DNA of 64,000 nt, from NCBI RefSeq assembly GCF_030435755.1, contig NC_080837.1:45139563-45203562 (forward strand), in the 5' to 3' direction. The stretch comes from Ochotona princeps (taxonomy: Eukaryota). Under the pieces are notes generated by a model that had not been told where the DNA came from, did not search any database, and saw only the letters and a program-made list of their open reading frames with translations. Both the position numbers and the translations under genes were made by a program. This document shows positions 33,481 through 56,265 of this stretch, one piece after another; within the stretch, counting starts at the first letter, position 1, and every line of letters begins with the position of its first letter.

Positions 33481-34894
33481 TTAAAAAAATGATTGGAGCT
33501 GTATTTGTTTGTATAGTTGCTGCTGTTATAAGTTCTATCTGGAGCCATCTCCCTCCACAAAACAACATGGGGCAGCTGTAGCACTTGTCCCTGCCACTCC
33601 TGTTTCTTTGATCTTGAGGATAGAAGATGGGTGTGTTACTAAGTATATGCCTGAACAAAGGAGTCCTTCTCAACAACGAAGGAATGGTAAGAGGAGAGAG
33701 AAGATAATAAGGCAGAAATGGATTATAATCACACTCAGGTTGGTGATGGTTTGATTCCTGATTACAGTAATCCTAGAAGTATTTTTTATCACAAGTTTAG
33801 AAAAAAACTCACAGTTGTAGGTTCTGTTACTTAGGTAAGGAATAGCACTATGCTATGCACTAGGGTAGCCAGTAGCTACTTGTAGATGTTGAGTAGTTAC
33901 AATCTAATAAATATAACTAGGAGACTGAATTTTTACAATTATTTCATCTTATTTAATTTTATTATATTACCTAACCATATAAGAGTGAAGGTTACTTTTT
34001 GGACAAGGTAGTACTTTAGTTGGTGTTTCTTTCTTTTCTTTTTTTTTTCTGTATCTTAGAATGGGGTGGAGGTGGTGGGGAGGTGAGGAGGAAGGGGAAG
34101 AAGAGAGGTTGGGGGGAGGCAGGTAGAAGTGAGAGACAGATCCTTTTGGAGGGCACCTTGATGCCATTCAAGTGAGCCTGCAAGGTGTGGAGGGCGGGGA
34201 TTGGGAAGGATTGAGGGCAAGCCCCATGGGATTGGTGTCTGAGACTGTCACAGGTGATTGCCTAAGAATGATTGGTAAGCGGGTGGAGTTGGGAAAGGGG
34301 CTGGGAGATTGGGGGTGGGATTCTCAGGTGAAATGCCGGGTTACTTCTGATTGGTGGTGGATGACTGGACTGGCAAGAATTTTCTCAGCTATGAGGAAGA
34401 GGAAATGGCACCGGGTCCAGGGTGGGATATTCTAATAACTCCTTACATTCCTTCCTTTTGTTATACATAAAGGAAAAGGGGCATTGTCTCTATGGTTTCT
34501 TCAAGCTGAGTTTACTAATGGCAATGGTTGCAGCCTGGTGGGAGGAATGAGAGATGGAGGGACACTTCTAGACCTGTAAAGAAACTGGTTAATGGTTTGA
34601 TTAAAAAAAAAAAAATTTACATCTGAGTGGATGACACAGGAATGGAGCGAGGGGTTATTCAAAGTCCTTTTGAAAAGCTGGCTTCAGTTCTCTTTTTCTC
34701 TTACCCAGGCCTTCTTGTGCTTTGGTCATTGATTCTTCATTACTCCTGAATGATCAACGTAGACAAGGTAGCCTCACCAGGAACCAGAGACCCTGACTGC
34801 CTATCATCCTATCTGACTCCTCACATTTCCAAGCAGAGGAATGAACCCTAGCTGCAATTTTGGTTAGGTGGATCTGCACAAACAAGAGAGAAGG

Positions 34895-35112
34895 GGGCCC
34901 AGAGCGGTGGCCTAGCAGCTTAAGTCCTCACCTTGAACACGCTGGGATCCCATATGGGTGCTTCTTCTAATCTCAATTCCCATCTGGCTCTCTGCTTGTG
35001 CCCTGGGAAAGCAGTTGAGGATGGCCCAAAGCCTTGGGACCCTGCACCCACGTGGGATACCCAGAAGATCTGGGCTCCTGGCTTGGGATCGACGCAGCAC
35101 CAGCTGGTGCTA
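34895..35112 (+). mobile_element. SINE 5' fragment in arm A; the full-length counterpart in arm B is at 63350-63665
   Basis: The head sequence matches, and it is truncated at ..ccagctggtgctagg. Confidence 0.7.
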
Positions 35113-36014
35113 GGTGAATTCATAGTTTGAGATAACCTTTTGAACATTAGATTAGGCTACATTCCTTCCAATAACAAAATATGTTTGCGAAGTTGGTTTT
35201 AGGAGATGCTCCTGATATGGAAACAGTAAGTAAGTGGTTGCAAAGTCAAGTCTCAAGGTTTGTTAAATTGTACAAAGCCAAGCAATACTTGCAATAAGTA
35301 AGTACTTGCAAAGCCATAAGTACTTGCAATTTTCTTTAGAATGAATTAAAAAAAAAAATTCTAGCTTCCATGTGTTTCTTTCCCACATGATAAGTAAGCT
35401 TTTGGGAGCAAATGGCCTAAAAACAAGACTGTGAAGTATTTCTCTTGATCTAGAGGTGCTGTGAGACATTGTTGGGATACTAAGTGCAATGTGACCTGGG
35501 AACCTGGGCAGTCTGGACTGGAGTATTGAGAACAGATCAAAGCAGTCTTAGAGGAATAGAATGTGGAAATTTGGTGTGAGATGATCTCAAGGGAGATGAT
35601 GGACATTTCTTGGGCCATTCATGGATTGGGCCACCAAGTATCTGTTCACAACACTGCAGAAGCATACTTGTTCATAAAACACCCATTAAGGAAAGTAAGA
35701 TACGTAAAAATGATTTACTAATGACAGGTGTAGGACAGGGCCCCAGATAGTACTTGATGTCCCCTGGAGTGCCATCCTTGATAGACCATACCTAAAAATG
35801 TGGCCTGAGGAGGTCTGCTACACATAGGGAAGGGAAGTGGGGAGAAAGAAATTAGGAAAGGATGACTTGTGTGTAACAAGAAAGATGTTGTCGGTTCTGT
35901 TACACAAAGAGGCAACTACAGAGAGGGACAGCACACTCTCTACTATTTTTTTTTTTTTTTGTCAATAGCCAAAGTTTATTAGTGGCATCATGCTTTTATA
36001 GAATGAGGGTCATG

Positions 36015-36338
36015 GGCCTGGCAGTGAAAGTCCTGGCCTTGAGCATGCTGGGATCCCATATGGGCACCAGTTCTAATCCCGGCTGCCCCCCTTCTCATCC
36101 AGCTCCCTGCTTGTGGCCTGGGAAAGCAGTCGAGGATGGCCCAAAGCCTTGGGACCCTGCACCCACATGGGAGACCTGGAGGAAGTTCCTGGCTCCTGGC
36201 TTTGGATCGGCGCAGCTGCTGCCATTGTGATCACCTGGGGAGTGAATCATCAGACAGAAGATCTTTCTGTTTCTCCTCCTCTCTGTATATCTGACTTTCC
36301 AATGAAAATAATTAAATCCTTAAAAAAAAATATGAGTT
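36015..36338 (+). mobile_element. SINE in arm A (counterpart at 61375-61655 in arm B, partly diverged)
   Basis: The copy resembles the SINE consensus. Confidence 0.75.
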
Positions 36339-36496
36339 CCACATAGGATAAAGGAGGAGGTATGGAGAATCTTACATATTTCCCACAAGCCTGTCTACAG
36401 AACCCATCAATTGTTTCTACACCCTTGTCTGAAAATATTTGTTTTGTATATCCAATCCATTGTTGCCACTCATAAGATATTCGATCAATTGTTTTC

Positions 36497-36647
36497 TTTT
36501 TTTTTTTTAATTTTTATTTTTATTACAAAGTCAGATACACTGAGAGGAGGAGAGACAGAGAGGAAGTGGAGCTGCCGGGATTAGAACCAGCGGCCATATG
36601 GGATCAAGGCAAGGACCTTAGCCACTAGGCCACGCCGCCAAGCACGA
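36497..36647 (-). mobile_element. Internally deleted SINE with a 15-bp TSD (cgatcaattgttttc), specific to arm A
   Basis: The TSD is seen at both flanks, and the element is absent from the mirrored arm B position. Confidence 0.75.
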
Positions 36648-38594
36648 TCAATTGTTTTCATACAAATGATATCCTATCAAGTGTCCTTCTACAAATCTTT
36701 ATTTTGTAAATTAGGCCTGAGGAATGTGTTTATGGAGAATGTGACCTTGGAAGGTGTATCACCCTGGCCGAGGTGTGGTCTGGTAAACTCCTGTCTTTGC
36801 TTGTCATCTACATGTACATGTCTTTGGTAGAATGCTTGTTTGTTGGTCAGCCCTGAGAAAGTTCACAGAAATAAGTGCATGGATTTCAAATTTTCTTACA
36901 CCAAAATAAGCTTATGTTTCATGTTTCCCATATATTGACGACTCCCCACAAACTGCTGGAGAGACACTGCAGTAGATTGAACCCAGCTTGTTTTCCTATT
37001 GTAGAAATATTGCATCCTTTTGTTTTGAAGCCACTTACTGCAGAGAGTCCACTAAAATGAATTGTTTAAATTTGTAATAATTTAGAAATAATCCTGTTCC
37101 AATCCTGCCTCTGTGTAAACGGAATCAGATTTGGGGTATTTAAAAATAACACCTTAATAGCTGGACTTTATACTTGGTATATGTTTACAAGGAAAGAATC
37201 TTGATTGAATTTGAACTGTAATACTGCATCAAGGTCGAGGAAGCCACCAGGGGGGAGGGGCGTGGGGGGGATTCCCAGAGCCTATGAAACTGTAACATAA
37301 TGCAAAATAATTAATAATAATAATAAATAAAAAAAAAACCAACACCTTCAGTAAGGAATCAAATACATGAGCCATTTTTTACTTATGACCCAATCGTTGA
37401 AAAGAATGCCTTCAAAGGTTCAAAACTGCATGGTCTCATTAGTGAAGTGAAACTTCAGTTTTAGACCACTCTCTTGTTAGTTTTGCTAAAATCATGGAAT
37501 GTATAAAGACAGTAATAAAATTACTACGTGCCAGAATAATCCATTTGTTTGACATTGGTCTCAGTTCTTTACATTCCTTTTCCCCCCCGTACCAATGATG
37601 TTTCTGCTGTCGTCCCTGTCACTAACAGTTCTGGTGTATAGTTGATGTCCCATAAATATTTGTTCAAGGAAGGGGAGACACCAGCTTGGAGAACAGTGTG
37701 ATTGGGCTATGAGTAAAATGGCAAGCAGCAACCTAGAGTTTCAGGAGAAAGAACAGGCGGACAGCTCCAATGACGAAGCTTTGGGCCATTGATTTGTCAT
37801 TTAACATGAGGTGGGTTAAATTTGTAAAACTAGGGAGAAAAATAAAAATAACTGAATTTTTACTGATAATTTATGTAGTTGTGTTAGAAGCATTTTTCAT
37901 CTTGGGGCAGGATTTTCTCTAGTTATCTGAATGGCATATATCCAGTCCAAAGGAAATTAAAGGATCTTTCCCATCTTTCCGTGCTCTGGCATCTCATCCT
38001 TTCGTGTCTGGGATCCAGAAATTCTTGCCCTAGAACTTTTCTTCTCCCCATCCGGACTGGACGTGTATCTTCTCTCAATCTCCCACAAACTGCAAGTCTT
38101 CCCTTGTCCAGGAAGCCAGACACCCACTCACTTCATTTTTTTTTTTCTTATTTATATGCTGAGTCTACGTACTGTTTCCCTACTCCCCAGTAACACCCTG
38201 CCTCCTGATCTGCCCTGACTGCCAAGGGAGGTTGAAAGGGAAGGTTTGTGACATAAAAAAGAGTAAGTATATGACCCACTTCATTGTATTCCGCCGTTGC
38301 GTTCGCTCTCCGCGGTTTGAAACTTGTTCTTTTCACGTGGCTTAGGGATTTACCTTAGAGAGCTGGGAGCCGGGTGGCAGGTTGAACCGCACATCTTGCG
38401 GCTTCCAGGCCTCCTTGCTGCAAAAGCCAGACCGCGAAGACAAAGTGGGTACAGGGATAAGATGCTGGATGCCACCCCATAACAACCGGAGCGGGTAGAG
38501 AGGGACCAGAGCTGGGAAAAAGGTTTGTGTCCCCATCTGGGGCGATTGAATCAGGTTCTGTCACCATGACGACAAGGGCCGGCCCGCGTGCTCC

Positions 38595-38650
38595 CCTGCC
38601 ATTGGCTGCGCACTCCATGGACCGGAGATATAAGCCTGCGCTAGGGAACA
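38595..38650 (+). promoter_or_regulatory. PNP: PNP copy A core promoter with an inverted CCAAT box and TATA box
   Basis: ccattggct lies at about 38599-38607 and TATAAG at about 38629-38634. Both are about 115-150 nt upstream of the ATG at 38750, inside a CpG-rich block (38300-39100). Human PNP is known to have a TATA plus inverted CCAAT promoter. Confidence 0.6.
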
Positions 38651-38749
38651 GTGAACTAACTGTGCTGCCTAGAGCCAGCTACCTTCTCCTTCTCTCGTCG
38701 GAGCGGATCGCAGCTAGGCAAAGGCTCTTGGAGAGGACCACGCCGGACC

Positions 38750-38760
38750 ATGGAGAACGG
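38750..38760 (+). CDS. PNP: PNP copy A exon 1 coding part (MEN + GG)
   Basis: The sequence is ggaccATGGAGAACGG|gtgagc, and the phase joins exon 2 (GG+A gives Gly). Confidence 0.8.
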
Positions 38761-40549
38761 GTGAGCTGGGCACCAGGCCCAGGGAACCCCAGAGGACCCT
38801 GCGGAGGGGAAATGGCTGTCACCAAGCCTGGGAAACTTGGCTGGCTGGGCCCTGAGGGGGTCGGGAGAGGGCGCAAATGCCCTGGAGACGCAGAGAGGCC
38901 CGGCATGGAACCTAGGTGTCCTGGGCGAGGCGACAGAGCAGTGAGGCAGCCCGCGCTGGCAGGGGCGCGCGCGGGAATGGAGCTAGGGTGGCGCCACCGC
39001 GGCGGGAAGGGGACAGGTTGGTGTGGTGCGGGCTACTCGTAAAAGGGACCGTTGTGTGGGAGCTCGCGTGCCTGGATTAGGGTGCGAGTGGAGACAGAGG
39101 CATAGGACCTACTTCGAAGCAGGGCAGACGGCCCTCCAGCCCATGCTAAGAACTCAAAGCCACAAGGTGTTTGTGCCTGAAGCCCCAGTTCCCCGTTTAG
39201 AGAAAAGCGTGCCCGCCCTCTCTCACAGGTTGCTTCTGGTTGGTTTCCCTCCGAATTGGAGATCAGATCAGTCAGTGGGGAATCATGGCTCCCAGGGAAG
39301 ACAGATATTATTCCTGAGCTGAGCGAGACCTTTCTCCATCCTCACCCTGTTCAGGGAAGCCACCCTCCCCATGTCTGTCCTGTGACTTCCAGTCAAACTC
39401 ACCAGCATTAGGGATCACAGAACTTTTGGCTGCCCAGGGATCAGGGAATCCCTGGGGGACTGAGGGCCAGGAAGGAAACCCCTGAGTTGGGACTATCACA
39501 CCAGGTGGCAGCTGCTCCAACATTTCCCTTTCCTTTGCACCTCTTGGAGATACCATTTGATTCATTTTTCACCAGCCTCATTGCCTCTTTTTCATTTTGT
39601 GGCACTAGCTCTCACCATCACCCCCAGCTCTCCTCTTGCCCACCACCTCGTGAACTGGGGAGTAAGTCTGGCTTCCTCTGCTCTGCTCTGCTCTCAAAGG
39701 GAAAGAATGTCTCTGTTGGCTTTGCCAGCTTTGTAGCCCTGCCAAACCTCAGTTCCACTGCAGGCAATCATTGGTGTTTCAGAGGGGAGTGAGAACTGGA
39801 CTTGGGACTGTAAGAAGCATTCTGAGTTACTCTTGCTGGCGAAGTAGAAGCAGCGGTTCTGGGTCAGTGTGCGCGGCCAGATCCTTTAAGGGCATGGAGC
39901 CTTGGTGAAGAGAAGGAAGGAGAAATTGTCAGGTGTGCAAGACAGTGTCGCAGGGGCTGGATAGCAAGTTTTAAATTCGCTTGCAAACTGAGTCTGTCCA
40001 GTAATAGAAGGGCAAATAACATGGCCTTACTTTATACCGGAGGCAGATGAAAGCACAGATTATTCACTGAAAAAGACAACCTCAGCAAGAATCTAGATTG
40101 AGTTCTGCTTCCCTCCCCTCTCCACCCAAATTCCCAAACATGACTTTGGGATCAGTTATGTGAGCCATTTTACAGAAACGGGAATTCTCTGGCCTCTCTC
40201 CAGCAGTGTTCCAGCCGCAAGGGTGGGCCTGTGTCTTTCACAAGCTTCTTCTGAGATTGCATGCTGTCAGGCTGGCTTAGCTTGTGGCGACCGCGTTGTG
40301 GCTTAGGTATACTTTTGTATGCCTTTATATGCACCCTTGCAAGTCTCATGACAGGGATGTTTGTGGGTCTGCCTATCCCAGAAAGAACCCAGGGAACCAT
40401 GAACGACACCCAGACCTTCTAAGAGGTTGCTAGTGCTTTTCTCCTCAAAACATCGATCCTTTAGTATTTGAGGAAAGAGTTGGAGAGTGAGGCAACAAGA
40501 GAAAATTGGATTTCCTCCTGCCCCCAAGGTAACTTTAATTCCATTTTAA

Positions 40550-41195
40550 ATGAGATGTAGACAGAGGCCTTCCATCTGCTGATTCACAGCTCAGATGGCT
40601 GCTGCACGTCAGGCTGGGCCAAGCCCAAAACAGTTAAGAGCTCCATGCAGGTCTTGCACCGGGTACAGGGGCCCAAGTGCGAACTGCTGTTCCAGGCATG
40701 TTAGCAGGAGACTGGATTGAAAGTGGAGCAACTGGGACTCAAACCCATACCCCCAGGTGAGATGCGGGTGTCACAGGCAACAGCTTAAACCCAGAGTCCC
40801 AGGCTGGCTCCAGGCCTGTCATTACATTTTGTATGTCCCTAGGGGATAGATAAAATCCTGAGCAAAATTGTCTTAGGTTTGTTGCTGCCCACAGTAAAGT
40901 CTTAATCCCACCTTTTAAAATGAGATGTATTGATTTGAAAGGCAGAGAGCGAAGAGAAGCTCCCATCCACTGGCCAGATCCAAGCCAGGAGTCAAGAATC
41001 CATCCTGGCCTTCTGCATAGGTGGCAGGGGCTCAAGGACCTGGGCCATCTTTTCCTCTGCTTTCCCAGACGTGTTAGCAGGAGGCTGGAGCAGAGGTGGA
41101 GCAGCCAGAACTAGACCTTGACATTTGAATGCTGGTGTCACAAGCAAGCGGTGGCTTAACAAGGGTGACAATGCTCTCCGTGGCACCAGCACCCG
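40550..41195 (-). mobile_element. Two tandem SINE-like elements in PNP intron 1 (about 40550-40820 and 40905-41195), mirrored in arm B at about 58596-59241
   Basis: The conserved core appears twice, and the six-frame ORFs are mirrored in arm B. Confidence 0.55.
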
Positions 41196-41584
41196 CCCTC
41201 TGGCTCTGCCACACTGGTCCCACTTTGAGTACTCTCCCTAAGCTTTTCAGACTCTGGTTGAACCTTTAACCTTGCTGACTGGATGAAGTCATTTCAGAAG
41301 GGAGATTAAACCTGCTATGGGTAACAGGACAGAGGCGGGGCTGTTGGTAGAGACATGGGCTTTATAAACTTAGCCTCTCCAGTGGGGGTAATTTCATGTC
41401 TGGGGTCCCCGGGCTGAATTCAGAAAGGGCTGGTGGAATGGGTGGGTGAGTATGCTGTGGCTTCTCCCTCGGAGCCAGTTTCTCTGTCCCCTGCTGTCTC
41501 GGTGTACCTGCCAGCCTGTTGGTCATTTGTTGGACACCTGTGGCTGGGAGCAGCACTCACTTTCGTTTTCTCTTCTTGTTCTAG

Positions 41585-41754
41585 ATTCACATATGAAGAT
41601 TATCAGAACACTGCAGAATGGCTGCTGTCTCACACCACGCACCGCCCTCAAGTGGCCGTGATCTGTGGTTCTGGGCTAGGAGGTTTGACTGATAAATTAA
41701 CGGAGGCCCAGGTCTTTAACTACAGTGAGATACCCAATTTTCCCCAAAGTACAG
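41585..41754 (+). CDS. PNP: PNP copy A exon 2 ([56 protein letters not shown])
   Basis: Within ORF 41433..41858, with a ttctag|A acceptor and an ACA G|GTACGA donor. Confidence 0.9.
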
Positions 41755-41864
41755 GTACGACCAGAGGAATGCTGGGGATGGCACTGAGGGAAATATGTAG
41801 ATACATATGTCTGCATGCATATATATGTATGTATGTATGTATATATAAGTATAAATGAAATTTT

Positions 41865-41995
41865 ATTTTTATGTGAAAGGCAGATACAGAGAGAGGAGAG
41901 ATCCCATCTGTTGGTTCACTCCCTAAATGCCTGGCACTCCAACCAGCACTCACAGGATGCCCTGGCACCGCCCCCTGGGGCCGGGGCGGGGGATT
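41865..41995 (-). mobile_element. SINE fragment in PNP intron 2, preceded by (TATG/TACA)n at 41817-41850; mirrored at about 57790-57975
   Basis: The fragment resembles the SINE tail. Confidence 0.5.
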
Positions 41996-43304
41996 TGTAT
42001 TGATGGCATGCTGTGGAATCCAATCAAGGAGGTCAAAGCTTATTATCCTATGACCCAGTATTTGCTCAAGATAAATGTAAGAGAAGAAAAATGTCCACTC
42101 TCAACCAGGATGACTCGGGAGTGAAGCTTTTCCGGCAGAAATGTGGTAATAGGACAAGTATTTGTTAGTGCAACTAGGGTGGCATCATTCCATCTTTCCT
42201 AAGCTTTGTTGACTCAGAGCTCCTCCAGACCCCAGGATAAGCCACTTACCTACTTCCCAGCCACATGCCTCCTCCCCTACTGTCAGCACGTTCAGACGGT
42301 ACTGTCGATAGTACTGTGAGGACAAGCAGTATTTGGACTCCGGGACAAAGTCACACCTTCCCTGGCTGGGTTAAGACACACCTTTGTGCCCAGCAGCAGA
42401 TGAGAAGGTGGCATAGGGTGCTCTGCAGGCATAGCCACAGCTCGCTGCACGGGTGGAAAGGCCTGACTAGCTGACCCGTTGGAAAGGGAAAGCGGCAGAT
42501 AGCCCCTTATCTACAGGGGAGCCCTGAGAGCTCGGGAAAGCACCCAATGGCCACACTCGGCCAGGTGAAACTGGCAAGGAAGGGCCAAGGGTACTTTATT
42601 TGGTTGACTTACTGATTTTGTCAATAACTTGCTTCCCTGGGCTTATTCACAAATGTTTAAGATTCCTATCTTCTGTCTCTGCAGAATTCATTCTTTGAAC
42701 AAAGATTGTTAAACTCTTTGGACAAGATTGGAAGACTAGAATAGAGAGATGAGAATGGGGGTTGGAGAAGGAAATATTACAGTGACAAGGAAGGCTTTTT
42801 TTGTGAATTGTTTTAAGATAGTAGTGACATTGGCTGCATCTGCCACTTCCACTCCCAGTGAGCTGGGCACTGCATTGAGTGATAAGTGGGCTCCCTTGCT
42901 GGGTTGGGGAGCTGTATAGTAGAGTGAAGGAGATAATTTTGGTATTTTTAAAGAGGTCTATCATTATCACAATCACTTTTCTCTGCTCTCTTTTTGTTTG
43001 TTTGTTTGTTTTACAATGTAGCTTTCTCACTCTTTTGCAACTTCTTTAGCAAGCCTTTCCTTTTCCTTTGTATGTTCACATGGATCAGTTTTACCTCTAA
43101 TCGCAGGTTATGTTTGCATAATTATGACTAATGCCCGTCTACCACAGCAGACAAAACTTTCTGAAAGCAGAGATAGTATCTTTTGCTGAATTATGCCCTC
43201 CTCTGTTGAGCAGCAAGTGGCCCACAGCAGGTGCTCAATGGCTGCGTGTTGTATGAAAGCCTAAGCCTAATCATTCTCCCCACTTCCCCCTTTTTGGTAT
43301 GCAG

Positions 43305-43408
43305 TGCCAGGTCATGCTGGTCAGCTGGTGTTTGGCTTCCTGAATGGCACATCGTGTGTGATGATGAAAGGCAGGTTCCATTTGTATGAAGGATACCCAC
43401 TCTGGAAG
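43305..43408 (+). CDS. PNP: PNP copy A exon 3 ([35 protein letters not shown])
   Basis: Within ORF 43304..43534, with a tatgcag|TG acceptor and an AAG|GTAAGC donor. Confidence 0.9.
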
Positions 43409-43520
43409 GTAAGCCAGGAGCGAAAAGGAAGAGAAGTGTCTGTTGAGTTATATTGTATTCCTCGCTTCTTTGGGCCCTTCTACAGAGGCAGCATGGGAGA
43501 GTTCAGAACACCTTTTCTGA

Positions 43521-44095
<575 letters not shown>

Positions 44096-44350
44096 TGACT
44101 TCAAAATTACTGCAATATGTTTATTTCTATATAAAACATGGCATCGGTACTATTTTATAAGCAATGCAGAAATAAGCCCTGTAAAGCCCCACTTATTTCA
44201 AGTCATACACACCAAATAAGACCGGTGCTAATTTAGTGTTGAGTGTCCTTTTTTGCATTTGGGGATTGAACATTTGCAGTGAAGTTACAGTGGGAGCCGA
44301 GGCTGAGGACGAGGATGCTGACGGTCACTTTCCTTTCTTGTGCCCACCAG

Positions 44351-44568
44351 GCATGAGCACCGTGCCAGAAGTGATCGTTGCCCGGCACTGCGGACTTCGA
44401 GTCTTTGGCTTCTCACTCATCACTAACAAAGTCATCTTTGATTATGAAAAGCTGGAAAAGGCCAACCACGAGGAAGTGTTGGAAGCCGGGAAACAAGCTG
44501 CCCAGAAACTGGAACAGTTTGTCTCCATTCTCGTGTCCAGCCTTCCACTCCCTGGCAATGTCAGCTGA
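44351..44568 (+). CDS. PNP: PNP copy A exon 6 ([72 protein letters not shown] stop)
   Basis: Within ORF 44236..44568, with a ccaccag|GC acceptor. The total CDS is 870 nt, giving 289 aa as in human PNP. Confidence 0.9.
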
Positions 44569-45005
44569 CCAGCCCTGGGGTGGTCAGGCCTCTCCGTGTT
44601 AGGATCCGAGTAGCTGCTGTCTACTTGGGCCCCCTAGCTGGAGTCATGTGCCTGTGTGTCCTTACTAGCAGGAAGAGGGAGATCCTCATCCTTTACCTTC
44701 TCCACTTTGTTCCACTAAACACTCCAGTGCCCGGTTCTCTTGCCCAGTGGTCTTCTCAAACAAGTTTGCTTCTAGTCCCTCGTCTACCATACGAACTGGA
44801 GCTGGTGCCCTACGACACACGCGTGCACATGCTCGGGATTTGACCTGGGCCTTCGGACTTTGCACAGTAGCTGTTGCTAGCTGTTTGAGACGATGCTTCT
44901 CACGTTCCTGGGGGTTCAGTTCTGCCCCACCTAACACTCTGGAGACCAAACAAGGACTAGACCAATACCTCATAGAAGCTTTATTTAATACTGAAATGTT
45001 TTGAC

Positions 45006-45011
45006 AATAAA
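45006..45011 (+). terminator. PNP: PNP copy A polyadenylation signal AATAAA
   Basis: gacAATAAAgaaaaaaa lies about 440 nt after the stop, about 245 nt inside the end of arm A. Confidence 0.5.
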
Positions 45012-45424
45012 GAAAAAAAGGGGGGAAATCTTGTGTGTTTTTGTTGCAATTTGGGGTGAGCCTGGGGCTCAGGCCAAGACTGTGACTCAGCTTCAGAGTC
45101 CAGGAGCTGAGAACTGAGAGCACTACCGCAAGGGAGGGAGGAGCCACGAAGGGCAGCAAGGTGGCCGGAGGTGGGGAGGAGGAGGAGGACTCCCTTGCGC
45201 TCTGTGGTGACCACTTCCTTCAGGCCAGTGCTAGGCCTTCTGGTTTCACTCCTGAATCTGTCAAGTTGAATACTGTACCCACCTGGATAGTGCATAATCG
45301 GGGAGTGGGATTGGCCTACAAGGGAAATAGTGGGCTCCTCCCTGTTGGGTTACCATTCCCACTGGAGATCAGGAAAACTAGGACAGGGGCAGGGGTGGCT
45401 ATGCAGAAAGGCACCAAACAGCAT

Positions 45425-45620
45425 TGTGTGTGCTGGGAAAGCAGTCGAGGACGGCCCAAAGCCTTGGAACCCTGCACCCAAGTGGGAGACCTGGTAGAAG
45501 CTCCTGGCTTCCGATTGGCTCAGCTCCAGCTGTTGCAGCCACTTGGTGAGTAAACCATCGGACGAAAGATCTTCCTCTCTGTATTTCTGCCTTTCCAATA
45601 AAAATAAATAAATCTTTTTT
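45425..45620 (+). mobile_element. SINE 3' portion just outside the arm A boundary
   Basis: The core and tail resemble the SINE consensus. Confidence 0.6.
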
Positions 45621-46984
45621 TCCATTTTTAAAATTTTTGACAATCTTTACATAGTTGAGTATGGCAAAAAAAATTCAAGGACTACAGGAAGGTGGGTAAG
45701 ACTATTATTTCCACATTGTTTTTCTCATGTATCTGGCATAAAGGGGGAGATAAAGGGAGAAGCCCCACCCAGTCTCCCACCCATGTCAGGTCCCTGTTGT
45801 GGAGCATGCTACGAGCGTCTTGCTCAAGAGTTTTGATAGTTCAACAGTTATGAATTGCTGCCAAACTCGCCACTACAAGCATGATGAGGTGCTGAAGAAT
45901 CCACTGATTGACATAGTCATCTTAGAGTCTCCTTTCTCTGTATATCTGACTTTCCAATAAAAAAAATAAAGCTCAAAAATAATCATTGTTCTTTAAAGAG
46001 ACCACCGTATGCTTTTTCTTATTTCCTGGTTCTGCTGCCCTAATATGGACAGCTGTCAAGTCAAGACCAAGTTCCTGACATGGACTCATTTTCTTCCCTC
46101 CAGAATCCATATCATACCAAACAGTTGTAACTACATCATAAGCAAGCCATAGTGTATGGTGCCAACAATAAGTTAAATGTTCTATAATATTATGATCTCT
46201 CTCAACTCCCCCCATATATGTACACACACACAGTTACCTAATTAGTTGTTCAAGATTTTTACTCATAGCTACCTCCCCAATATAGGCCATAGAGACCTAA
46301 AGACCCTCCCTCATTCCAAAAGGGTCCTGCTCCATTTCCAAGAGAAAGAAATGCTGAAGAATCTGTACAGACGGGTCTTGCTGCATTTCCCCACACAGTC
46401 TGTTATTAGCAATCCTGCCTATGCAGTAACATCTCCAGTAGACTCCAGAACAGTAATCAGACACAGCTGAATGCTGAAATTCCGGAAGGGTGTTGCACCA
46501 GGAGAGTGTGGAAGCTCTGCATCTCTTCTCCCAGGCCTCATCCTGGGCGTCTACATTATCCTTTTCAACATCCTTGGTAATAAACCAGTAAATGTTAGTG
46601 TTCCCTTGAATTCTCCCAGCTACTCAAAAAAAAAAAAAAAAAAAAATTCATGGCTACAGGTTTGCACCTGGCTGGTCAGAAACACAGATAAAATAACCTG
46701 GACCTTGCAACTGCCAGTTAAATAGGGAGAGGGGAGCAGTCTTGGAGACTAACCCCCTCAACCTGTGGGATCTGATGCTATCTCCGGGTAGGTAGTGTCA
46801 GAACTGAATTTGAGAACATCCAGCTTGTGTCAGTTGCAGAACTGATTGCTTGCTTGGTTTGTAGAGAAAACCTCACACATATCTGGTATCACAGTGATCT
46901 GTATTGTGAGAGTAAAGAAGAGAAGCTGAGTCGGGGTTGGTTTTCCCTTGCGTGTCCAAAAGTCCCATTTAATTTCCTCACAAC

Positions 46985-47320
46985 AAGGGCCAGGCGGCGT
47001 GGCCTAGCGGCTAAAGTCCTCGCCTTGAACGCGCCAGGATCCCATATGGGCACCGGTTCTAATCCCAGCAGCTCCACTTCCCATCCAGCTCCCTGCCTGT
47101 GGCCTGGGAAAGCAGTTGAGGACGGCCCAAAGCTTTGGGACCCTGCACCCACGTGGGAGACCTGGAAGAGGTTCCAGGTTCCCGGCATCGGACCGGCCCG
47201 TTGCGGCTCACTTGGGGAGTGAAACATCGGATGGAAGATCTTCCTCTCTGTCTCTCTCCTCCTCTCTGTATATCCGGCTTTCTAATAATAATAAAATCTT
47301 AAAAAAAAAATTTTTAATTT
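46985..47320 (+). mobile_element. SINE (near-consensus) with TSD (ttaatttcctcacaaca), in the spacer
   Basis: The TSD is seen at both flanks. Confidence 0.85.
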
Positions 47321-47609
47321 CCTCACAACAGCACAGGCCGCCTTGTCTTCTTTGCATCATAACCCAAGTCCCACTCAGTTTCTTTCTATTTCAAGATGTC
47401 TCCAATCATTCAAAAAAAGAATTATTTCCCCGAACTCACATCTATCCTCCAGCTATGACTCTCCTATGTTGAGAGTTGCTCATTGCATGTACTTGTCATC
47501 TCTCTTTCCCCATCTCATTCATTGTGGTTTCTATTCCACTCAAGAGATGACTCACGCCACTGAGACCACTTGTCAAGGGGACCTTGACAACTCTCTGGTT
47601 GAAGCAGTT

Positions 47610-47927
47610 TTTTTTTTTTTTTTTAGATTTATTATTATTTGAAAGGTAGATTTAGAGTGAGACACAGAGAGAGATCTTCCATCCACTGATTCACTTCCCA
47701 AATGACCACAGTGGCCAGAGCTGAGCCCATCCAAAGTTGAGAGCCAGGAGTTCCCTCCAGGTCTCCCACATAGGTAGAGAAGTAAAAGGACCTGAGTCAT
47801 CCTCCACCACTTTTTCAAGCCATTAGCAGGGAGCTGGATTGGAAGTGGAGCAGCTAGAACTATAATCATATGGGATGCCAATGCTGTAAGACAGAGGATT
47901 AGCCAATTGAACCACTGTGCCAGCCCC
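47610..47927 (-). mobile_element. SINE in reverse orientation
   Basis: The copy resembles the SINE consensus. Confidence 0.7.
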
Positions 47928-48704
47928 GAAAGCTTTGTACTCACCTCCCAAGACAGTCTGTTTTTCTGGTTTTCTCATACCTCCCTGACGGCTCTTTTTC
48001 ACATTTCCTTTTTGCATCCTTTTTCTCATGATGAGGATGGAATGGTGTCCAGACCACATGTGCTAAATGCCATTTATGTGTTAATAACTTCCAAATTAAT
48101 GAATGTAGCTTAAGCCCTGTCCCTTGATGTCCAAACACATTTACCCAAGTAGAAACTCTATGTGTCCATCTGAAAGAAAAGATTTTTCCGCACTTTACAG
48201 CTGTGAGCCAAATTTGGTTATCCTTCCAAAATCACTTTTTCCTTCAAGGCTTCGTCTGAGTAAATGGAACTTTCATTTACCTATTAGGTCACATTAAAAG
48301 CTTGGGAGCCAATCTAGACTTTTTTCTTTCTTCCTCAGATCTTATTTGACTGCATCCTTTCTACCTTCAGAATATCTCCAGTCTGAACTTTTCTTTCCTA
48401 CTAAACATTACCACCAATGGTGCAAGCCAGAACCAACTGGTAGCTTGGTTTGTCTACCACAGGGCTCTCCTAATCAATCTCTCTACTTCCATCTTTACTT
48501 CATATCATTGGTTTTCTATGAGGCAATCAGTGAAATTCTGTAAAGGTGAGTCAGTTAAAAATCATTTAAATGATAATTTTTCATGCTCAAAACTCAGACT
48601 TTGTACCATGACCTACAACATTTACCCATGTCTCCATCCTCTTATCAACCACCATTATCTCCTTTCTTCACTGAACTCTAGTGAAATGTGTAGTAAGACT
48701 CTTT

Positions 48705-48820
48705 CTGGGGGCTGGTGTTATGGCATACAGGCAAAGCCTCTGCCTTCAACACCAGCATCCCATATGGGTACTGGTTCATGTCTTGGCTGTGTCACTTGCT
48801 CCCTGCTAATGCATCGATGG
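48705..48820 (+). mobile_element. SINE 5' fragment
   Basis: The head sequence resembles the SINE consensus. Confidence 0.5.
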
Positions 48821-49680
48821 TCCAGGTACTTTGTAAGACTGTTTTTTAGTAAATGAAAGTCTTTAGGTTTTCTTATATGCTTACTCTGCCAATTTCTCAT
48901 TCAACGTTATAAATGGACACAAACCACTCATTATTTAAAAACAAACATGGAGGTATAGTAAGAGTAGCTGGATGTTTTCTGCCAATCCATGATTCTTCAT
49001 AGTTGTTCAGCTTCTAAACTGTTTTCTACTTGTTAACCCTTCACTTCAGGATAAGCCCTATGTCAGGTCTCCCAAAGTTGTGAGGAACTGATGTGGTTTT
49101 ACTGGGTTCAGGAATTTTCTCAGATCAAGTTATCTTTGCCTGGAAAGTCTGAGAGATGCCTTGGAGAACCGAACTGCACCTTGAAGCAACGATGATGAGC
49201 ATTGCATATAATCTTCAGACTTATGAGGTACCCTTGCCCGTGAAGGGGCTTTGGGCAGATTCACAGGTGCTTGTGAGCTCAGCTAGACTGGACAAAGATG
49301 AGCGTGTACGCATAGTCTCTCCACTTCCAGTACAGGAGCTTTCCATCCTGATGCAGCCAGCCCTCTATGAGGATTCTAGAGTCAAAAGTTTGTGCTTCTA
49401 TCTGTACTGGAAAGTTTGGTTTGTCTCAGTGAACTATTATGAGTCCTTGGGCTAAACAAACCTCTTTGGCTTATGTAAATGATATTATGTTGACTCTGTC
49501 ATCAGTCTGCACCTGAGTTTTCCGTTTGTCAACATGGATTGGACACCCAGTTTCTAAATAACTGTAACATTTACTTAACAACCCTGCACAACATTTTTGT
49601 CTTTTTGTTTTCGCCTCATCTTATTTGAAATTTGTTCTTCTGAAATTTAAATGTATTAAGTTTCATGAAAAAGTGCTGGG

Positions 49681-49698
49681 GTGTGTGTGTGTGTGCTT
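49681..49698. repeat. (GT)n microsatellite near the symmetry centre of the inverted duplication
   Basis: The stretch reads gtgtgtgtgtgtgtgtg. Confidence 0.9.
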
Positions 49699-49974
49699 TG
49701 TATGTGGATCATCATCTTCCCATGAAATCATGAGGAAGCTTAAAATCGTTCACAGTCCCAAGACAGGATACCAGCCAACAGTGGCTCCCTAGGCTGCTGA
49801 GCAGCGGCGGAGGCATGAGGTGGTATATTTACTCACTTATTAAACAAATGGTTTAGGGTTAGGGATAGAGAAAAGAACAAGAAAGCATTCTTACTTTTGT
49901 AAAGAAAACATTCTTACTTTTTGTAGTCTGGAGCTAGACGACAAATAAATATGCATGTCAAAATAGAAGATACA

Positions 49975-50275
49975 GCTGGTGCTATCACACAGCAGGTTGC
50001 TGTCACTTGTGATACTACCAACTCATTCATGTCTGCTTGCCTGTTCAATACCTGGCTGTTCCACTTCTGATCCATCTCCCTACTAGAGTGCCTGGGAAGT
50101 CAGTGGAAGACGGCCCAAATGCTTGCACCCATGCTACCCAGGTTGGAGATCTTCCAGATTCTTATGATAAGATTGACGAAGCCTTGGCCATTGCTGACAT
50201 TTGGGAAATGAATTAGTGGATTGAATACTCTCTGTAACTTTGCTTTTAAGTAGGTAAATAAATCTTTTAAAAACC
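49975..50275 (+). mobile_element. SINE (divergent)
   Basis: The copy resembles the SINE consensus. Confidence 0.6.
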
Positions 50276-50339
50276 ATGAAAATTGTCAAAGTCAAACAGC
50301 CAACAAGCAAAATGGAAATGAAAATACAAATATGAGGAC

Positions 50340-50652
50340 TGGCACACTGGATTAACTGACTAATCCTCCAGCTCCAAGCACAGGCACTCCTTATGGGCAC
50401 TGGTTCATGTCCCATCTGCTCTGCTTCCCATCCAACTCCCTGCTTATGGCCTGATGAAACAGTAGAGGAAGGCCCAAAGCCTTGGGCCCTGTACCCACAT
50501 GGGGACCCAGAGGCAGCTCTTGGCTCCTGGCTTCAGATTGGCTCAACTCTGGGTGTTATGGCCATTTGGGGGTGTGAACCAGTGGATGGAAGATCTTTCT
50601 GTGTCTCCTCTCTGTAAATCCATTTTTCCAATAAAAATAAATCTTTAAAAAA
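50340..50652 (+). mobile_element. SINE
   Basis: The copy resembles the SINE consensus. Confidence 0.7.
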
Positions 50653-50687
50653 GTGCAAATAACAGAAGATAACAAGAACATGAAATG

Positions 50688-51018
50688 ACCCAGCACGGTA
50701 GCCTAGTGGCTAAGGTCCGCACCTTGTACATGCCTGCATCCCATAATGGTGCCAGTTCTAATCCCAGCAGCCCCACTTCCCATTCAGCTCCCTGCTTGTG
50801 GCCTGGAAAAGCAGTCAAGGCTGCCCCAAAGCCTTAGGACCCTGCGCCCACATGGGAGACCTGGAGGAAGCTCTTGGCTCTGGCTTTGGATCAGCTCAGC
50901 TCTGGCTATTGCTGCCACTTAGGGAGTGAATCAGCGCACAAAAAATCTTTCTCTTTGTCTCTCCTCCTCTCTGTATATCTTACTGTCCAATAAAAATAAA
51001 TAAAGTAAATCTTAAAAC
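50688..51018 (+). mobile_element. SINE
   Basis: The copy resembles the SINE consensus. Confidence 0.75.
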
Positions 51019-52104
51019 AATATAAAATGAACATGGAAAATAAGAAAACAGCAAGTGAGATAGTCAACTTAATAAAATGAACATAGAAAGTCAGAATGGA
51101 AATGAAAGTGAAAGCCAAATGGAGGAGTAGGATTTTCCAACCCAGAAAAAACACAAGGGTAGATTCATCCAGAAGGACATCAAATTTAATTTAGACCAAA
51201 GCTAAAAACCAGGCAAGATTAAAGATAGGAAATTTTTCCTTTTTATTGAGTTCCAAAGTCATTGTAACAGAAAAATCAGGCGCATGACCAGTATTTGTTC
51301 AAAAGATGTCCCATAGAAACAAAACATAATTAATGAAAAACAGAGGCCTATTTACAAGAGAGAAAGGCAACAGAAATCTAAGCCAAATCAAATTTCGGCC
51401 CAGAACAGAAAGAGCAGCTCTCCTCCTCACTCTTTCAAGAGCTGATTACATTACGTCTTTGTCTCCATTACCATGAATAAGCCATAAAGGTTTTGTAGTG
51501 GCTTAAAAAAAATCAGGCTATATTCTTCTTTTGCTTCCAAAACCTTTGAGAAGACAAGCATGTAAACTTGGCAGCACTGACTTAATTAAGAAAACACTAA
51601 TTTATTGATGTGAAATGAGCTCTAGGATAGATTAAAACAGAGCAGCAAGAAGCACAACAGTACACAGAGCACTGTTTTCAATGTGGGAGAGAAGTAAAAA
51701 ATAAGAATTTGGCACCAAAAGACTGTACGCTCTCTCTTGTATGTTGAAGCCAAAATGTTGATCTTGGAGAAGTAGAGAATGCTGAGTGGTCATTAGAGCC
51801 CAGGAAGGGTGCTGCGGGGGGAGGATGGAAGGAGGACGGTTACCAGGTACCGGGGTGTGGAAGGAAAGGAGGAGGAGCTTCTCATGCTCTCCAGCATTGC
51901 GGGATCACAGTGGTAGGCAATAGTTACGTGGACAGTTCAAAATCATTGGCAGAGAGGATTTTGAACATTCCCAACACAAAGAAATGATGAATGGTATGGG
52001 TGAGGGATATGCCATTTATCCTCACCTAATCATTACACATTGTATATATTAATGGAAATGCTTAATCACACCCTGTAAACCAAATTATGATGTATTCATT
52101 AAAA

Positions 52105-52392
52105 AATAAAAACAGAGCAGCTAGCATGGTGGCACAACAGGTTGGGCTACCTGCTGTTTGTGAAGCTGACAACACACCAGCACTTGGTTGTTCCACTTCT
52201 GATCCAGGTCCCTGTTCTTGGAATTGGAAAAGTAGTATAGGATGGCCCAGGTGCTGGTGTCCCTGCACCCATGTGGGAGACCTGGAGGAAACTCCTGACT
52301 CTTGGCTAGAGTCTAGCCCCTGTAGTTACAGTTATTTGGAAATTAAGCCAGCAGATGGAAGATCTCTGTGTCACTCCATCTCTCTCTTTTTT
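52105..52392 (+). mobile_element. SINE (divergent)
   Basis: The copy resembles the SINE consensus. Confidence 0.6.
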
Positions 52393-53055: not shown

Positions 53056-53099
53056 TGTTTCTGACTCTGCATGTCAAATAAATCAATCATTCATAAACA

Positions 53100-55690: not shown

Positions 55691-56265
<575 letters not shown>

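What the first reader, a model, noticed from the sequence alone, without database searches (positions are those of the whole stretch)
36680..38650. PNP copy B has lost the canonical promoter, with the breakpoint between the TATA box and the TSS
In arm A, the interval 36680-38640 contains about 1.6 kb of unique sequence plus the CpG-rich core promoter (inverted CCAAT at 38599-38607, TATAAG at 38629-38634). Mirror identity resumes only at about 38645 (acagtgaactaa...), roughly 105 nt upstream of the ATG. In arm B the corresponding position (about 61160-61205) instead joins directly to sequence homologous to A:36655-36680. Read on the minus strand, the joined region runs ..tatatatCCAATcaattg..atagCCAATcag.. 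then the homologous acagtgaactaa. Copy B therefore keeps a perfect ORF and the 5' UTR, but it has a different and weaker-looking upstream context with two CCAAT boxes and an AT-rich TATA-like element in the wrong order. It may be silent, tissue-restricted, or driven from a novel promoter.
Basis: partly seen in the sequence, partly recalled or inferred. Interest (0 to 1): 0.75.

Follow-up and report, generated by a model that had tools for sequence, protein, structure and literature searches.

The report
Promoter-truncated PNP duplicate in pika palindrome
In pikas the purine nucleoside phosphorylase gene sits as two mirror-image copies; one copy lost about 1.9 kb of its upstream promoter more than 10 million years ago, yet its coding sequence is kept identical to the intact copy by repeated copying between the two (gene conversion).

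Summary
The core observation is real, but the breakpoint is misplaced. The window is the American pika (Ochotona princeps) PNP locus, with two tail-to-tail six-exon PNP genes whose coding sequences are identical. Copy B lacks 1,943 bp that copy A has (36676-38618). This segment holds the 5' part of the CpG island, blocks conserved with hare, and the inverted CCAAT box.

The junction has a 4-bp TCCT microhomology. It lies 10 bp upstream of the TATA box, not between the TATA box and the start site. B keeps a TATA homologue, mutated to TGTAAG here and intact (TATAAA) in O. curzoniae.

The hare PNP upstream region is colinear with A's extra segment, so this is a deletion in B. O. curzoniae copy B has the identical junction, so the deletion predates the species split (10.65 Ma).

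Sequence next to the junction groups by orthology. The gene body groups by species (376 informative sites against 1), so gene conversion has homogenised the transcription unit independently in each lineage. The spacer is inverted between the two species.

Whether B is transcribed is unresolved. My inference is that it is weakened or silent. This is a new example of a known kind, an autosomal palindrome evolving in concert; interest is moderate.

The parts
36676..38618 (+). Ancestral PNP upstream region present in copy A and deleted in copy B (1,943 bp). It includes the 5' ~420 bp of the CpG island, hare-conserved promoter blocks and the inverted CCAAT box.
   Evidence: junction. (colinear with Lepus L007 7900-10051). 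(conserved blocks).
36672..36675 (+). Left copy of the TCCT microhomology at the deletion junction. The right copy is the ancestral CACTCCT at 38611-38618.
38601..38605 (+). Inverted CCAAT box (ATTGG) of the canonical promoter. Conserved in O. curzoniae copy A and in hare; deleted in B.
38629..38634 (+). TATA box (TATAAG) of copy A, 116-121 nt upstream of the ATG.
38200..39200 (+). CpG-enriched island of copy A (GC 0.51-0.69, CpG observed/expected 0.52-0.71). B retains only the part from 38619 onward.
38750..44568 (+). PNP copy A, ATG to stop. Exons: 38750-38760, 41585-41754, 43305-43408, 43536-43711, 43804-43994, 44351-44568. Product 289 aa. The AATAAA signal is at 45006.
   Evidence: The product is exactly O. 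princeps PNP.
55218..61035 (-). PNP copy B. Exons: 61035-61025, 58206-58037, 56481-56378, 56250-56075, 55982-55792, 55435-55218. The coding sequence and splice sites are identical to A.
61187..61190 (-). Deletion junction in copy B (TCCT). Read on the minus strand: ...CAAATCATATCCT|GGGCCAGAGATGTAAG.
   Evidence: The identical junction is at L002 9863-9878 in O. curzoniae.
61171..61176 (-). Degenerate TATA homologue of copy B (TGTAAG). The orthologous copy in O. curzoniae has TATAAA.
61214..61218 (-). Forward CCAAT (AGCCAATCAG) brought to 37 nt upstream of the TATA homologue by the deletion. Shared by the B copies of both species and absent from both A copies.
61100..61119 (-). 20-bp tandem duplication in the 5' UTR, private to O. 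princeps copy B. It also marks the 5' edge of the near-identical block.
38686..45253 (+). Inner arm A, 99.6% identical to 61099-54533 (25 substitutions, 3 indels, none in exons). This is the gene-conversion tract.
54533..61099 (-). Inner arm B, the mirror of 38686-45253.
45254..54532 (.). 9.3-kb spacer made of ancestral PNP downstream sequence. In this species it is colinear with hare in the orientation of copy B. In O. curzoniae it has the opposite orientation and is contiguous with copy A.
34661..36675 (+). Outer arm A (upstream flank), homologous to 63909-61187 at 79-96.5% identity. It is a mosaic of converted stretches (34800-36000) and unconverted stretches (34600-34800, 36000-36675).
61187..63909 (-). 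Outer arm B (upstream flank of copy B). It runs into a SINE at the end of the window.

Best explanation
The window holds an autosomal palindrome specific to pikas. An ancestor of O. princeps and O. curzoniae made an inverted duplicate of PNP, taking at least 4 kb of upstream flank and 0.7 kb past the stop codon. The duplicate was placed tail-to-tail about 9-10 kb downstream.

The duplicate (copy B) then suffered, or was born with, a microhomology-mediated (TCCT) deletion. It removed about 1.9 kb immediately upstream of the TATA box: the 5' part of the CpG island, the conserved proximal blocks and the inverted CCAAT box.

Since then, recombination between the arms has acted in two ways:
1. Non-crossover gene conversion has repeatedly homogenised the transcription unit, from about 70 bp downstream of the junction to 220 bp past the poly(A) signal, and part of the far upstream flank. 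This happened independently in each species.
2. At least one crossover within the arms has flipped the spacer in one lineage.

The deletion is a large heterology. Conversion tracts stop short of it, so an island of a few hundred bp on each side keeps the old divergence and the orthology signal. This is why the promoter difference has survived for more than 10 My while the ORFs stay identical.

Inferred, not shown: copy B is transcriptionally weakened or silent from the canonical start site, and its intact ORF is maintained mainly by conversion coupled to selection on copy A.
For: Identity of the locus:
- The spliced product is exactly O. princeps PNP. RefSeq carries two accessions with this sequence, and two for O. 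curzoniae.
- Pfam PNP_UDP_1 matches at 7e-50.

Deletion in B, not insertion in A:
- Hare upstream sequence (L007 7900-10051) is colinear with A 36750-38800.
- The promoter-proximal blocks, CCAAT and TATA are conserved among pika copy A, O. curzoniae copy A and hare.

Age of the deletion:
- O. curzoniae copy B (L002) has the same junction, ATCC|TGGGCCGGAGATATAA.
- Both B copies share a 41-47-bp gap relative to both A copies.
- In the ~300 bp left of the junction, orthologues are 88-90% identical and paralogues 78-82%. Site patterns in 36000-36600 are 25 for orthology against 5 for species grouping.
- Subgenus Ochotona split from the Pika lineage 10.65 Ma (PMC9486525).

Concerted evolution:
- In 38600-45300, 376 sites group the copies by species against 1 by orthology.
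- In intron 2, paralogues are 99.4% and 98.7% identical and orthologues 92%.
- The identity gradient runs about 69% (38619-38647), 92% (38645-38685), then 99.6% from 38686.

Spacer flip:
- Hare downstream sequence is contiguous with copy B in O. princeps but with copy A in O. curzoniae.
- This behaviour is described for primate X palindromes (PMC8327919).

Weakened promoter (inference):
- In the ~95-bp unconverted core promoter and 5' UTR, private substitutions number 8 (O. princeps B) and 5 (O. curzoniae B) against 2 and 1 in the A copies. The B copies also carry extra indels.
- TATA is mutated to TGTA in this species.
- The one O. curzoniae RNA contig reaching an informative 5' UTR site is A-type. 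None of four RNA contigs is B-type at CDS 84, CDS 741 or the 3'-UTR site about 135 nt past the stop (position +1005).
Against: The functional part is not shown.
- B keeps a TATA box that is intact in O. curzoniae, the predicted start site, about 60% of the CpG island and the whole of intron 1.
- The deletion places a consensus-like CCAAT (AGCCAATCAG) at about -70, conserved in both B copies.
- All 5 coding differences between the O. curzoniae copies are synonymous (P about 0.001 if random). There are none in O. princeps. This fits purifying selection on B as well as on A, although conversion-coupled selection would give the same pattern.
- Two O. curzoniae RNA contigs carry B-type alleles at CDS 99 and 102. 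These could be B transcripts, chimeric assemblies or polymorphism.
- No clear CpG decay is seen in B's residual island.
- The spacer-orientation difference rests on two assemblies of single individuals and could be polymorphic or a mis-join.
- That leporids have only one copy rests on one hare locus (±10 kb) and on accession counts, not on a whole-genome search.
Confidence: 0.7

Rival explanations
1. Copy B is an expressed, functional gene driven by a compact rebuilt promoter. The deletion juxtaposed a consensus-like CCAAT (NF-Y type) at about -70 to the retained TATA, start site, downstream CpG island and intron 1. Under this view the duplicate is dosage-adding or differently regulated, and selection acts on it directly.
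For: - AGCCAATCAG is shared by the B copies of both species and absent from both A copies. It lies 37 nt upstream of the TATA homologue.
- TATAAA is intact in O. curzoniae copy B.
- About 60% of the CpG island is retained.
- All 5 of 5 coding differences between the O. curzoniae copies are synonymous.
- B-type alleles at CDS 99 and 102 appear in two RNA contigs.
- RefSeq models both loci as PNP.
Against: - The TATA box is mutated in O. princeps B.
- The B core promoter and 5' UTR have accumulated about 4 times more private changes plus indels.
- No RNA contig is B-type at CDS 84, CDS 741 or the 3'-UTR site about 135 nt past the stop (position +1005). The only one reaching the informative 5' UTR site is A-type.
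- About 400 bp of hare-conserved proximal promoter is gone.
- Synonymous-only differences are also expected if variants pass through A by conversion.
Confidence: 0.3
2. The extra 1.9 kb is an insertion into copy A, and B shows the original state.
For: None beyond the bare presence/absence pattern in the window. A does carry one private SINE insertion just to the left.
Against: Hare is colinear with the A-specific block over five segments, 36750-38800. The block contains the conserved CCAAT, GC-rich promoter and CpG island. O. curzoniae copy A also has it.
Confidence: 0.01
3. The two copies are an assembly artefact: collapsed or duplicated haplotypes, or a false inverted join.
For: 99.6% identity over 6.6 kb could mislead an assembler. 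The coding sequences are identical.
Against: - The flanks differ by 4-20%, with private SINEs and indels.
- An independent assembly of a second species has the same structure, the same junction and orthologous flanks.
- In O. curzoniae the copies differ by 1-3%, including 5 coding sites.
Confidence: 0.02
4. Each pika species duplicated PNP independently and recently, which would explain why paralogues are more alike than orthologues without any gene conversion.
For: Species-wise grouping of 376 sites in the gene body.
Against: - The deletion junction is identical to the base in both species, and both share the B-specific 41-47-bp gap.
- Sequence next to the junction and at 34600-34800 groups by orthology.
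- Identity changes abruptly, in a mosaic pattern, along a single colinear arm.
Confidence: 0.02

Closest known systems
Mammalian sex-chromosome palindromes (human Y P1-P8; primate X palindromes) with arm-to-arm gene conversion
   Same: - Inverted arms each carry a protein-coding gene, separated by a unique spacer.
- Arm identity is above 99% and is maintained by intrachromosomal gene conversion, so paralogues group by species.
- The spacer is inverted between species through recombination between the arms (PMC8327919; here).
   Different: - It is autosomal: the neighbours are a KLHL33-like BTB ORF, OSGEP and APEX1.
- The arms are small (6.6 kb near-identical core, at least 10.6 kb in total) and carry a housekeeping enzyme gene rather than a testis gene family.
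- The arms are asymmetric. One carries a 1.9-kb promoter deletion that has resisted homogenisation for more than 10 My.
Canonical mammalian PNP promoter (human PNP: TATA box, inverted CCAAT box, GC-rich elements; intron-dependent expression). This is my recollection of Jonsson, Williams & McIvor, Nucleic Acids Res 1991 and 1992; the papers are not held in the library.
   Same: Copy A has the same layout: an inverted CCAAT 23 nt upstream of TATAAG, inside a CpG-rich region. It is conserved in O. curzoniae copy A and in hare.
   Different: Copy B lacks everything upstream of -10 nt from the TATA box and has a mutated TATA. Its only CCAAT is a forward one of non-homologous origin, 37 nt upstream.
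Lineage-specific PNP duplicates in other mammals (mouse Pnp/Pnp2 from my own knowledge; 'PNP-like' models in sloth, aardvark, pocket gopher, cattle, opossum)
   Same: Local duplication of PNP is recurrent in mammals.
   Different: Most of those paralogues have diverged in protein sequence (74-84% identity to the query). The pika copies are identical in protein because of ongoing conversion, and are arranged as a palindrome. I did not examine the other loci.
Promoter-less or 5'-truncated segmental duplicates (unprocessed pseudogenes)
   Same: A DNA-level duplicate that retains introns and has lost upstream regulatory sequence.
   Different: There is no ORF decay at all after more than 10 My. 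The core promoter position, start site and 5' UTR are retained. Pseudogene status is not shown.

Membership tests
Purine nucleoside phosphorylase (trimeric PNP, Pfam PF01048 PNP_UDP_1), both copies | Significant match to the family profile over the full domain | tested here: met
   PF01048, E = 7.3e-50, residues 27-279. 92% identical to rabbit PNP and 86% to my recalled human PNP. Exact match to O. princeps RefSeq PNP.
Purine nucleoside phosphorylase (trimeric PNP, Pfam PF01048 PNP_UDP_1), both copies | Intact six-exon gene with canonical splice sites and an uninterrupted ORF | tested here: met
   870-nt coding sequence, GT/AG at all five introns, identical in A and B.
Purine nucleoside phosphorylase (trimeric PNP, Pfam PF01048 PNP_UDP_1), both copies | Active-site residues of human PNP (S33, H64, R84, H86, Y88, N115, A116, F200, E201, M219, S220, T242, N243, H257; list from my own knowledge) | tested here: met
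   All are present at the same positions in the translated sequence, read directly. The alignment to human is gap-free.
Purine nucleoside phosphorylase (trimeric PNP, Pfam PF01048 PNP_UDP_1), both copies | Enzymatic activity and expression of the product of copy B | not testable with these tools
   Needs copy-specific transcript or protein data.
Canonical PNP promoter, as applied to copy B | Inverted CCAAT box about 25 nt upstream of the TATA box, within a GC/CpG-rich upstream region | tested here: not met
   Deleted in B. The junction lies 13 nt downstream of the position of ATTGG. B's upstream 200-bp windows have GC 0.34 and CpG observed/expected 0.17.
Canonical PNP promoter, as applied to copy B | TATA box about 30 nt upstream of the start site | tested here: inconclusive
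   The homologous position is present but reads TGTAAG in O. princeps B. It is an intact TATAAA in O. curzoniae B.
Palindrome / inverted duplicate under arm-to-arm gene conversion (concerted evolution) | Inverted arms with high identity flanking a unique spacer | tested here: met
   38686-45253 against 61099-54533: 99.6% identity, with a 9.3-kb spacer.
Palindrome / inverted duplicate under arm-to-arm gene conversion (concerted evolution) | The duplication predates a speciation event, yet the paralogues group by species | tested here: met
   Shared junction and orthology signal beside it. 376 against 1 informative sites group by species in the gene.
Palindrome / inverted duplicate under arm-to-arm gene conversion (concerted evolution) | Evidence of crossover between the arms (spacer inversion) | tested here: met
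   The spacer is contiguous with the ancestral-type downstream sequence on copy B in O. princeps and on copy A in O. curzoniae. Caveat: one assembly per species.
Processed (retro-)pseudogene | Loss of introns, a poly(A) tract, target-site duplications | tested here: not met
   All five introns and the upstream flank are retained in B.

The most novel reading that the evidence does not exclude
Copy B is a transcriptionally dead PNP gene. For more than 10 million years its open reading frame has been kept letter-perfect in two pika lineages solely by arm-to-arm gene conversion coupled to selection on copy A. The promoter deletion itself is shielded from repair because conversion tracts cannot cross the 1.9-kb heterology. 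This would be a natural demonstration that conversion can indefinitely postpone pseudogene decay, and that a silent copy can act as a template reservoir for an essential housekeeping gene.
Probability: 0.3. Interest if true: 0.55.

Novelty: new member of a known kind. Interest (0 to 1): 0.38.

Why it matters
PNP is an essential purine-salvage enzyme; in humans its loss causes T-cell immunodeficiency (my own knowledge). This locus is a compact, fully sequenced natural experiment.

Two gene copies share an identical coding sequence but differ sharply in their promoters, and the structure is conserved in two species that split about 10.65 Ma. The locus shows, at base-pair resolution, how a large heterology sets the boundary of gene-conversion tracts. 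It also shows how regulatory divergence can persist beside complete coding homogenisation.

It gives a directly testable case for one question. Does conversion preserve the ORF of a promoter-crippled duplicate, or did a 4-bp-microhomology deletion create a new minimal CCAAT-TATA promoter?

There is a practical consequence too. Reads from the two copies will multi-map, so PNP expression and variant calls in pika genomics need the copy-specific markers listed in this report. The case is instructive but not unexpected for specialists in duplicate-gene evolution.

Tried and rejected
I used O. curzoniae (P0122) and Lepus europaeus (P0137) instead.
2. I tried to decide B expression from four O. curzoniae RNA-seq contigs (L003-L006). 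They start at -61 to -19, too short to reach the strongly diverged part of the 5' UTR. They also carry mixed or private alleles, so they cannot separate B transcripts from polymorphism or chimeric assembly. Result: inconclusive.
3. I looked for CpG decay in B's residual CpG island as a proxy for germline methylation. CpG counts are 40 against 41 (O. princeps) and 52 against 46 (O. curzoniae). Conversion erases the signal. Result: uninformative.
4. I could not establish whether the proximal CCAAT of B is a B-lineage gain or an A-lineage loss. Hare does not align in that 100-bp stretch.
5. I looked for RNASE10 (the human downstream neighbour, my own knowledge) in the spacer and in the hare locus, using the bovine sequence. 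There was no hit.
6. Literature: no paper mentions Ochotona together with PNP. The human PNP promoter papers are not in the library, so statements about them are from memory.
7. The insertion-in-A, assembly-artefact, independent-duplication and retrocopy explanations were considered and rejected (see rival explanations and the membership test).
8. My first exon coordinates, and the first spliced O. curzoniae constructs, were off by 1-2 nt. They were corrected. Variant numbering is therefore approximate, and one search gives the correct CDS positions.
Full report
**What the window is.** The region is mammalian. A spliced six-exon gene on the plus strand encodes a 289-aa protein. Its exons are 38750-38760, 41585-41754, 43305-43408, 43536-43711, 43804-43994 and 44351-44568, all with GT/AG splice sites. 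The protein matches Pfam PNP_UDP_1 (E = 7e-50). An exact look-up shows it is the purine nucleoside phosphorylase of the American pika, Ochotona princeps. That sequence carries two RefSeq accessions, and the plateau pika O. curzoniae likewise has two accessions for one sequence. Upstream ORFs match BTB (3683-4384, minus), TsaD/OSGEP (13018-13443, minus) and an APEX1-type nuclease exon (17939-18427, plus). From my own knowledge this is the gene order next to human PNP. A second PNP copy lies on the minus strand at 61035-55218. Every exon and splice site is identical to copy A.

**Checking the observation.** Inverted-repeat and BLAST analyses show three colinear zones.
- Inner arm: 38686-45253 against 61099-54533. 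It has 25 substitutions and 3 small indels (99.6% identity), none in exons.
- Transition zone: a short stretch between the junction and 38686.
- Outer arm: 34661-36675 against 63909-61187, at only 79-96.5% identity.

Between the outer arm and the transition zone, copy A has 1,943 bp (36676-38618) that copy B lacks. The block contains the 5' ~420 bp of a roughly 1-kb CpG island and the inverted CCAAT box (ATTGG, 38601-38605).

The breakpoint, however, is not between the TATA box and the start site. B continues, diverged, through the TATA position:
- A reads GGACCGGAGATATAAGCC.
- B reads GGGCCAGAGATGTAAGTC.

The match is 20/29 before the well-conserved ACAGTGAACTAA (P about 2e-5). In O. curzoniae the same stretch is 23/25 identical between the copies, with an intact TATAAA in B. 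The junction carries a 4-bp TCCT microhomology: left ATATCCT|ATCAAG, right CACTCCT|GGGCC, product ATATCCT|GGGCC. It lies 10 bp upstream of the TATA box and 13 bp downstream of the CCAAT box.

B's 5' UTR is also not perfect. It has three substitutions and a private 20-bp tandem duplication at 61119-61100. About 160 bp just left of the gap in A (36492-36650) is an A-private SINE with a 14-bp target-site duplication.

**Deletion or insertion?** I fetched the hare (Lepus europaeus) PNP locus, L007. Its upstream region is colinear with the A-specific block in five segments, A 36750-38800 against L007 7900-10051. The proximal 400 bp shows long blocks conserved among O. princeps A, O. curzoniae A and hare, including CCAAT and TATA. 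The block is therefore ancestral and B carries a deletion.

**How old is it, and is it real?** The O. curzoniae assembly holds the same tail-to-tail pair (L001 and L002).
- L001 has the full promoter. L002 has the same junction to the base.
- Both B copies share a 41-47-bp gap relative to both A copies.
- In the ~300 bp left of the junction, orthologues are more alike (A-A 89.8%, B-B 88.0%) than paralogues (82.1% and 77.9%).
- Site patterns in 36000-36600 favour orthology 25 to 5.

The duplication and the deletion therefore predate the split of the two species. That split is the divergence of subgenus Ochotona from the Pika lineage, 10.65 Ma (PMC9486525). From branch lengths in the unconverted stretches I estimate the duplication at roughly twice that age. 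This is an inference counts and assumes equal rates. An assembly artefact is excluded by the independent second assembly and by the diverged flanks.

**Concerted evolution.** In the gene body the signal reverses.
- Over 38600-45300, 376 informative sites group the copies by species and 1 by orthology.
- In intron 2, paralogues are 99.4% (O. princeps) and 98.7% (O. curzoniae) identical, against 92% for every cross-species pair.
- Part of the far upstream flank (34800-36000) behaves the same way, at 96.5% and 98.1% against 89%.

With a shared ancient junction, this mosaic means repeated arm-to-arm gene conversion, independent in each lineage. Identity falls from 99.6% to 92% to about 69% over the last ~70 bp before the junction. 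About 600 bp on the other side also remains unconverted. This is what is expected if conversion tracts need homology on both sides and cannot cross a 1.9-kb heterology. That last step is inference.

**Crossovers as well.** Hare downstream sequence (L007 16.4-17.6 kb, 22.2-24.0 kb and 26.2-26.5 kb) is contiguous with copy B and the spacer in O. princeps. In O. curzoniae it is contiguous with copy A and the spacer. Window-to-locus alignments run straight through the arm ends in the crossed pairing: A arm plus spacer matches L002, and B arm plus spacer matches L001. The outer flanks stay with their own promoters. So the spacer has been inverted in one lineage by recombination within the arms.

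The O. curzoniae arrangement (full promoter, gene, ancestral downstream) looks ancestral. That makes A the parental gene and B the inserted inverted copy. Spacer inversions of this kind occur in about half of primate X-palindrome comparisons (PMC8327919). Caveat: there is one assembly per species, and the state may be polymorphic.

**What the deletion does: inference.**

Lost:
- all upstream promoter sequence beyond -10 nt from the TATA box, including the conserved CCAAT;
- GC-rich blocks;
- 40% of the CpG island.

Kept:
- the TATA position (mutated to TGTAAG here, intact in O. curzoniae);
- the predicted start site and 5' UTR;
- exon 1 and intron 1, with the rest of the island.

The deletion also brings a forward AGCCAATCAG to 37 nt upstream of the TATA homologue, about -70. 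This motif is shared by both B copies and absent from both A copies. Whether it was gained in B or lost in A cannot be polarised.

Evidence that the B core promoter is under relaxed constraint:
- In the ~95 unconverted bp, private substitutions number 8 (O. princeps B) and 5 (O. curzoniae B) against 2 and 1 in the A copies. The B copies also have a 20-bp duplication and two 4-bp indels.
- Of four O. curzoniae RNA contigs, one is A-type at all diagnostic sites it covers apart from a 1-nt indel in a 3'-UTR homopolymer where all four contigs disagree with the copy A assembly. None is B-type at CDS 84, CDS 741 or the 3'-UTR site about 135 nt past the stop (position +1005).

Evidence pointing the other way:
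- Two RNA contigs have B-type alleles at CDS 99 and 102.
- All five coding differences between the O. curzoniae copies are synonymous (P about 0.001).
- O. princeps has no coding difference at all, where about 3 would be expected from the arm-wide rate.

Conversion-coupled selection through copy A could produce the same pattern. I therefore commit, at moderate confidence, to 'weakened or silent from the canonical start, ORF preserved mainly by conversion'. I give about 0.3 to a working compact promoter.

**Comparison with what is known.** The system behaves like the sex-chromosome palindromes: arm-to-arm conversion, paralogues grouping by species, and spacer flips. It differs in being autosomal, small, and built around a housekeeping gene. 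It is also asymmetric, because one arm carries a long-lived regulatory deletion. Copy A matches the classical PNP promoter layout of TATA plus inverted CCAAT in GC-rich sequence. That layout is from my memory of Jonsson et al. 1991, which the library does not hold. B fails the CCAAT and GC-rich criterion and is equivocal for TATA. It is not a retrocopy, because the introns are retained. No paper on pika PNP was found. RefSeq already models both genes, so the duplication itself is on record. I could not find the promoter deletion, its age, the conversion mosaic or the spacer flip described anywhere.

**Verdict.** The promoter loss is real and ancient, but the breakpoint was misplaced by about 30 bp, and TATA, the start site and the 5' UTR are retained in degraded form. 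This is a new member of a known kind. Interest is moderate (0.38): it is a clean and readily testable example of regulatory asymmetry persisting beside coding homogenisation, but it is not a new principle.

Noticed in passing
window 45254-54532, compared with L001 16494-25390 and L002 15861-24750: The 9.3-kb spacer between the two PNP copies has opposite orientation, relative to the promoter-intact copy, in O. princeps and O. curzoniae. Hare downstream sequence is contiguous with copy B here but with copy A in O. curzoniae. This implies an inversion by recombination between the arms, or an inversion polymorphism or mis-join.
   Followed up: yes
window 36492-36650: A SINE fragment (poly-T end first, so antisense) is inserted only in O. 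princeps copy A. It is flanked by a 14-bp target-site duplication, GATCAATTGTTTTC. It is absent from O. princeps B and from both O. curzoniae copies, so it is a young insertion in the unconverted zone.
   Followed up: partly
window 35106/35107, compared with 63451-62579, L001 6010-6817 and L002 7627-8503: O. princeps copy A lacks about 0.8-0.9 kb (largely SINE sequence) that is present in O. princeps B and in both O. curzoniae copies. This is a private deletion in the upstream flank of A. Hare 5951-6659 aligns to the B version.
   Followed up: partly
It is not a PNP residue; the PNP proteins are identical.
   Followed up: yes
window 38686-39363 and 61099-60422: There is no difference at all between the arms across 678 bp covering the 5' UTR, exon 1 and the CpG-rich start of intron 1. 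The rest of the arm averages one difference per ~240 bp. This may reflect a very recent or GC-biased conversion, or constraint.
   Followed up: no
L001 11230-12182, compared with L002 11210-11533: In O. curzoniae, intron 1 of copy B is about 650 bp shorter than that of copy A. The copies there are less homogenised (96.6-98.6%) than in O. princeps (99.6%).
   Followed up: no
window 3683-4384 (minus), 13018-13443 (minus), 17939-18427 (plus): ORFs match BTB/POZ (KLHL33-like), TsaD/OSGEP and the APEX1-type exo-endo-phosphatase domain. The PNP palindrome therefore sits in the conserved KLHL33-OSGEP-APEX1-PNP neighbourhood. The synteny with human 14q11.2 is from my own knowledge.
   Followed up: partly
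It is part of a short, degenerate, tandemly repeated CCAATCAATTGTT-like motif upstream of the junction, so it is not B-specific.
   Followed up: partly
L004 and L006 (Logan RNA contigs from SRR22936853 and SRR22936744): These O. curzoniae PNP transcripts carry several private variants and a mixture of A-type and B-type alleles relative to the reference assembly. This suggests either substantial PNP polymorphism shuffled by conversion or co-assembly of transcripts from both copies.
   Followed up: partly
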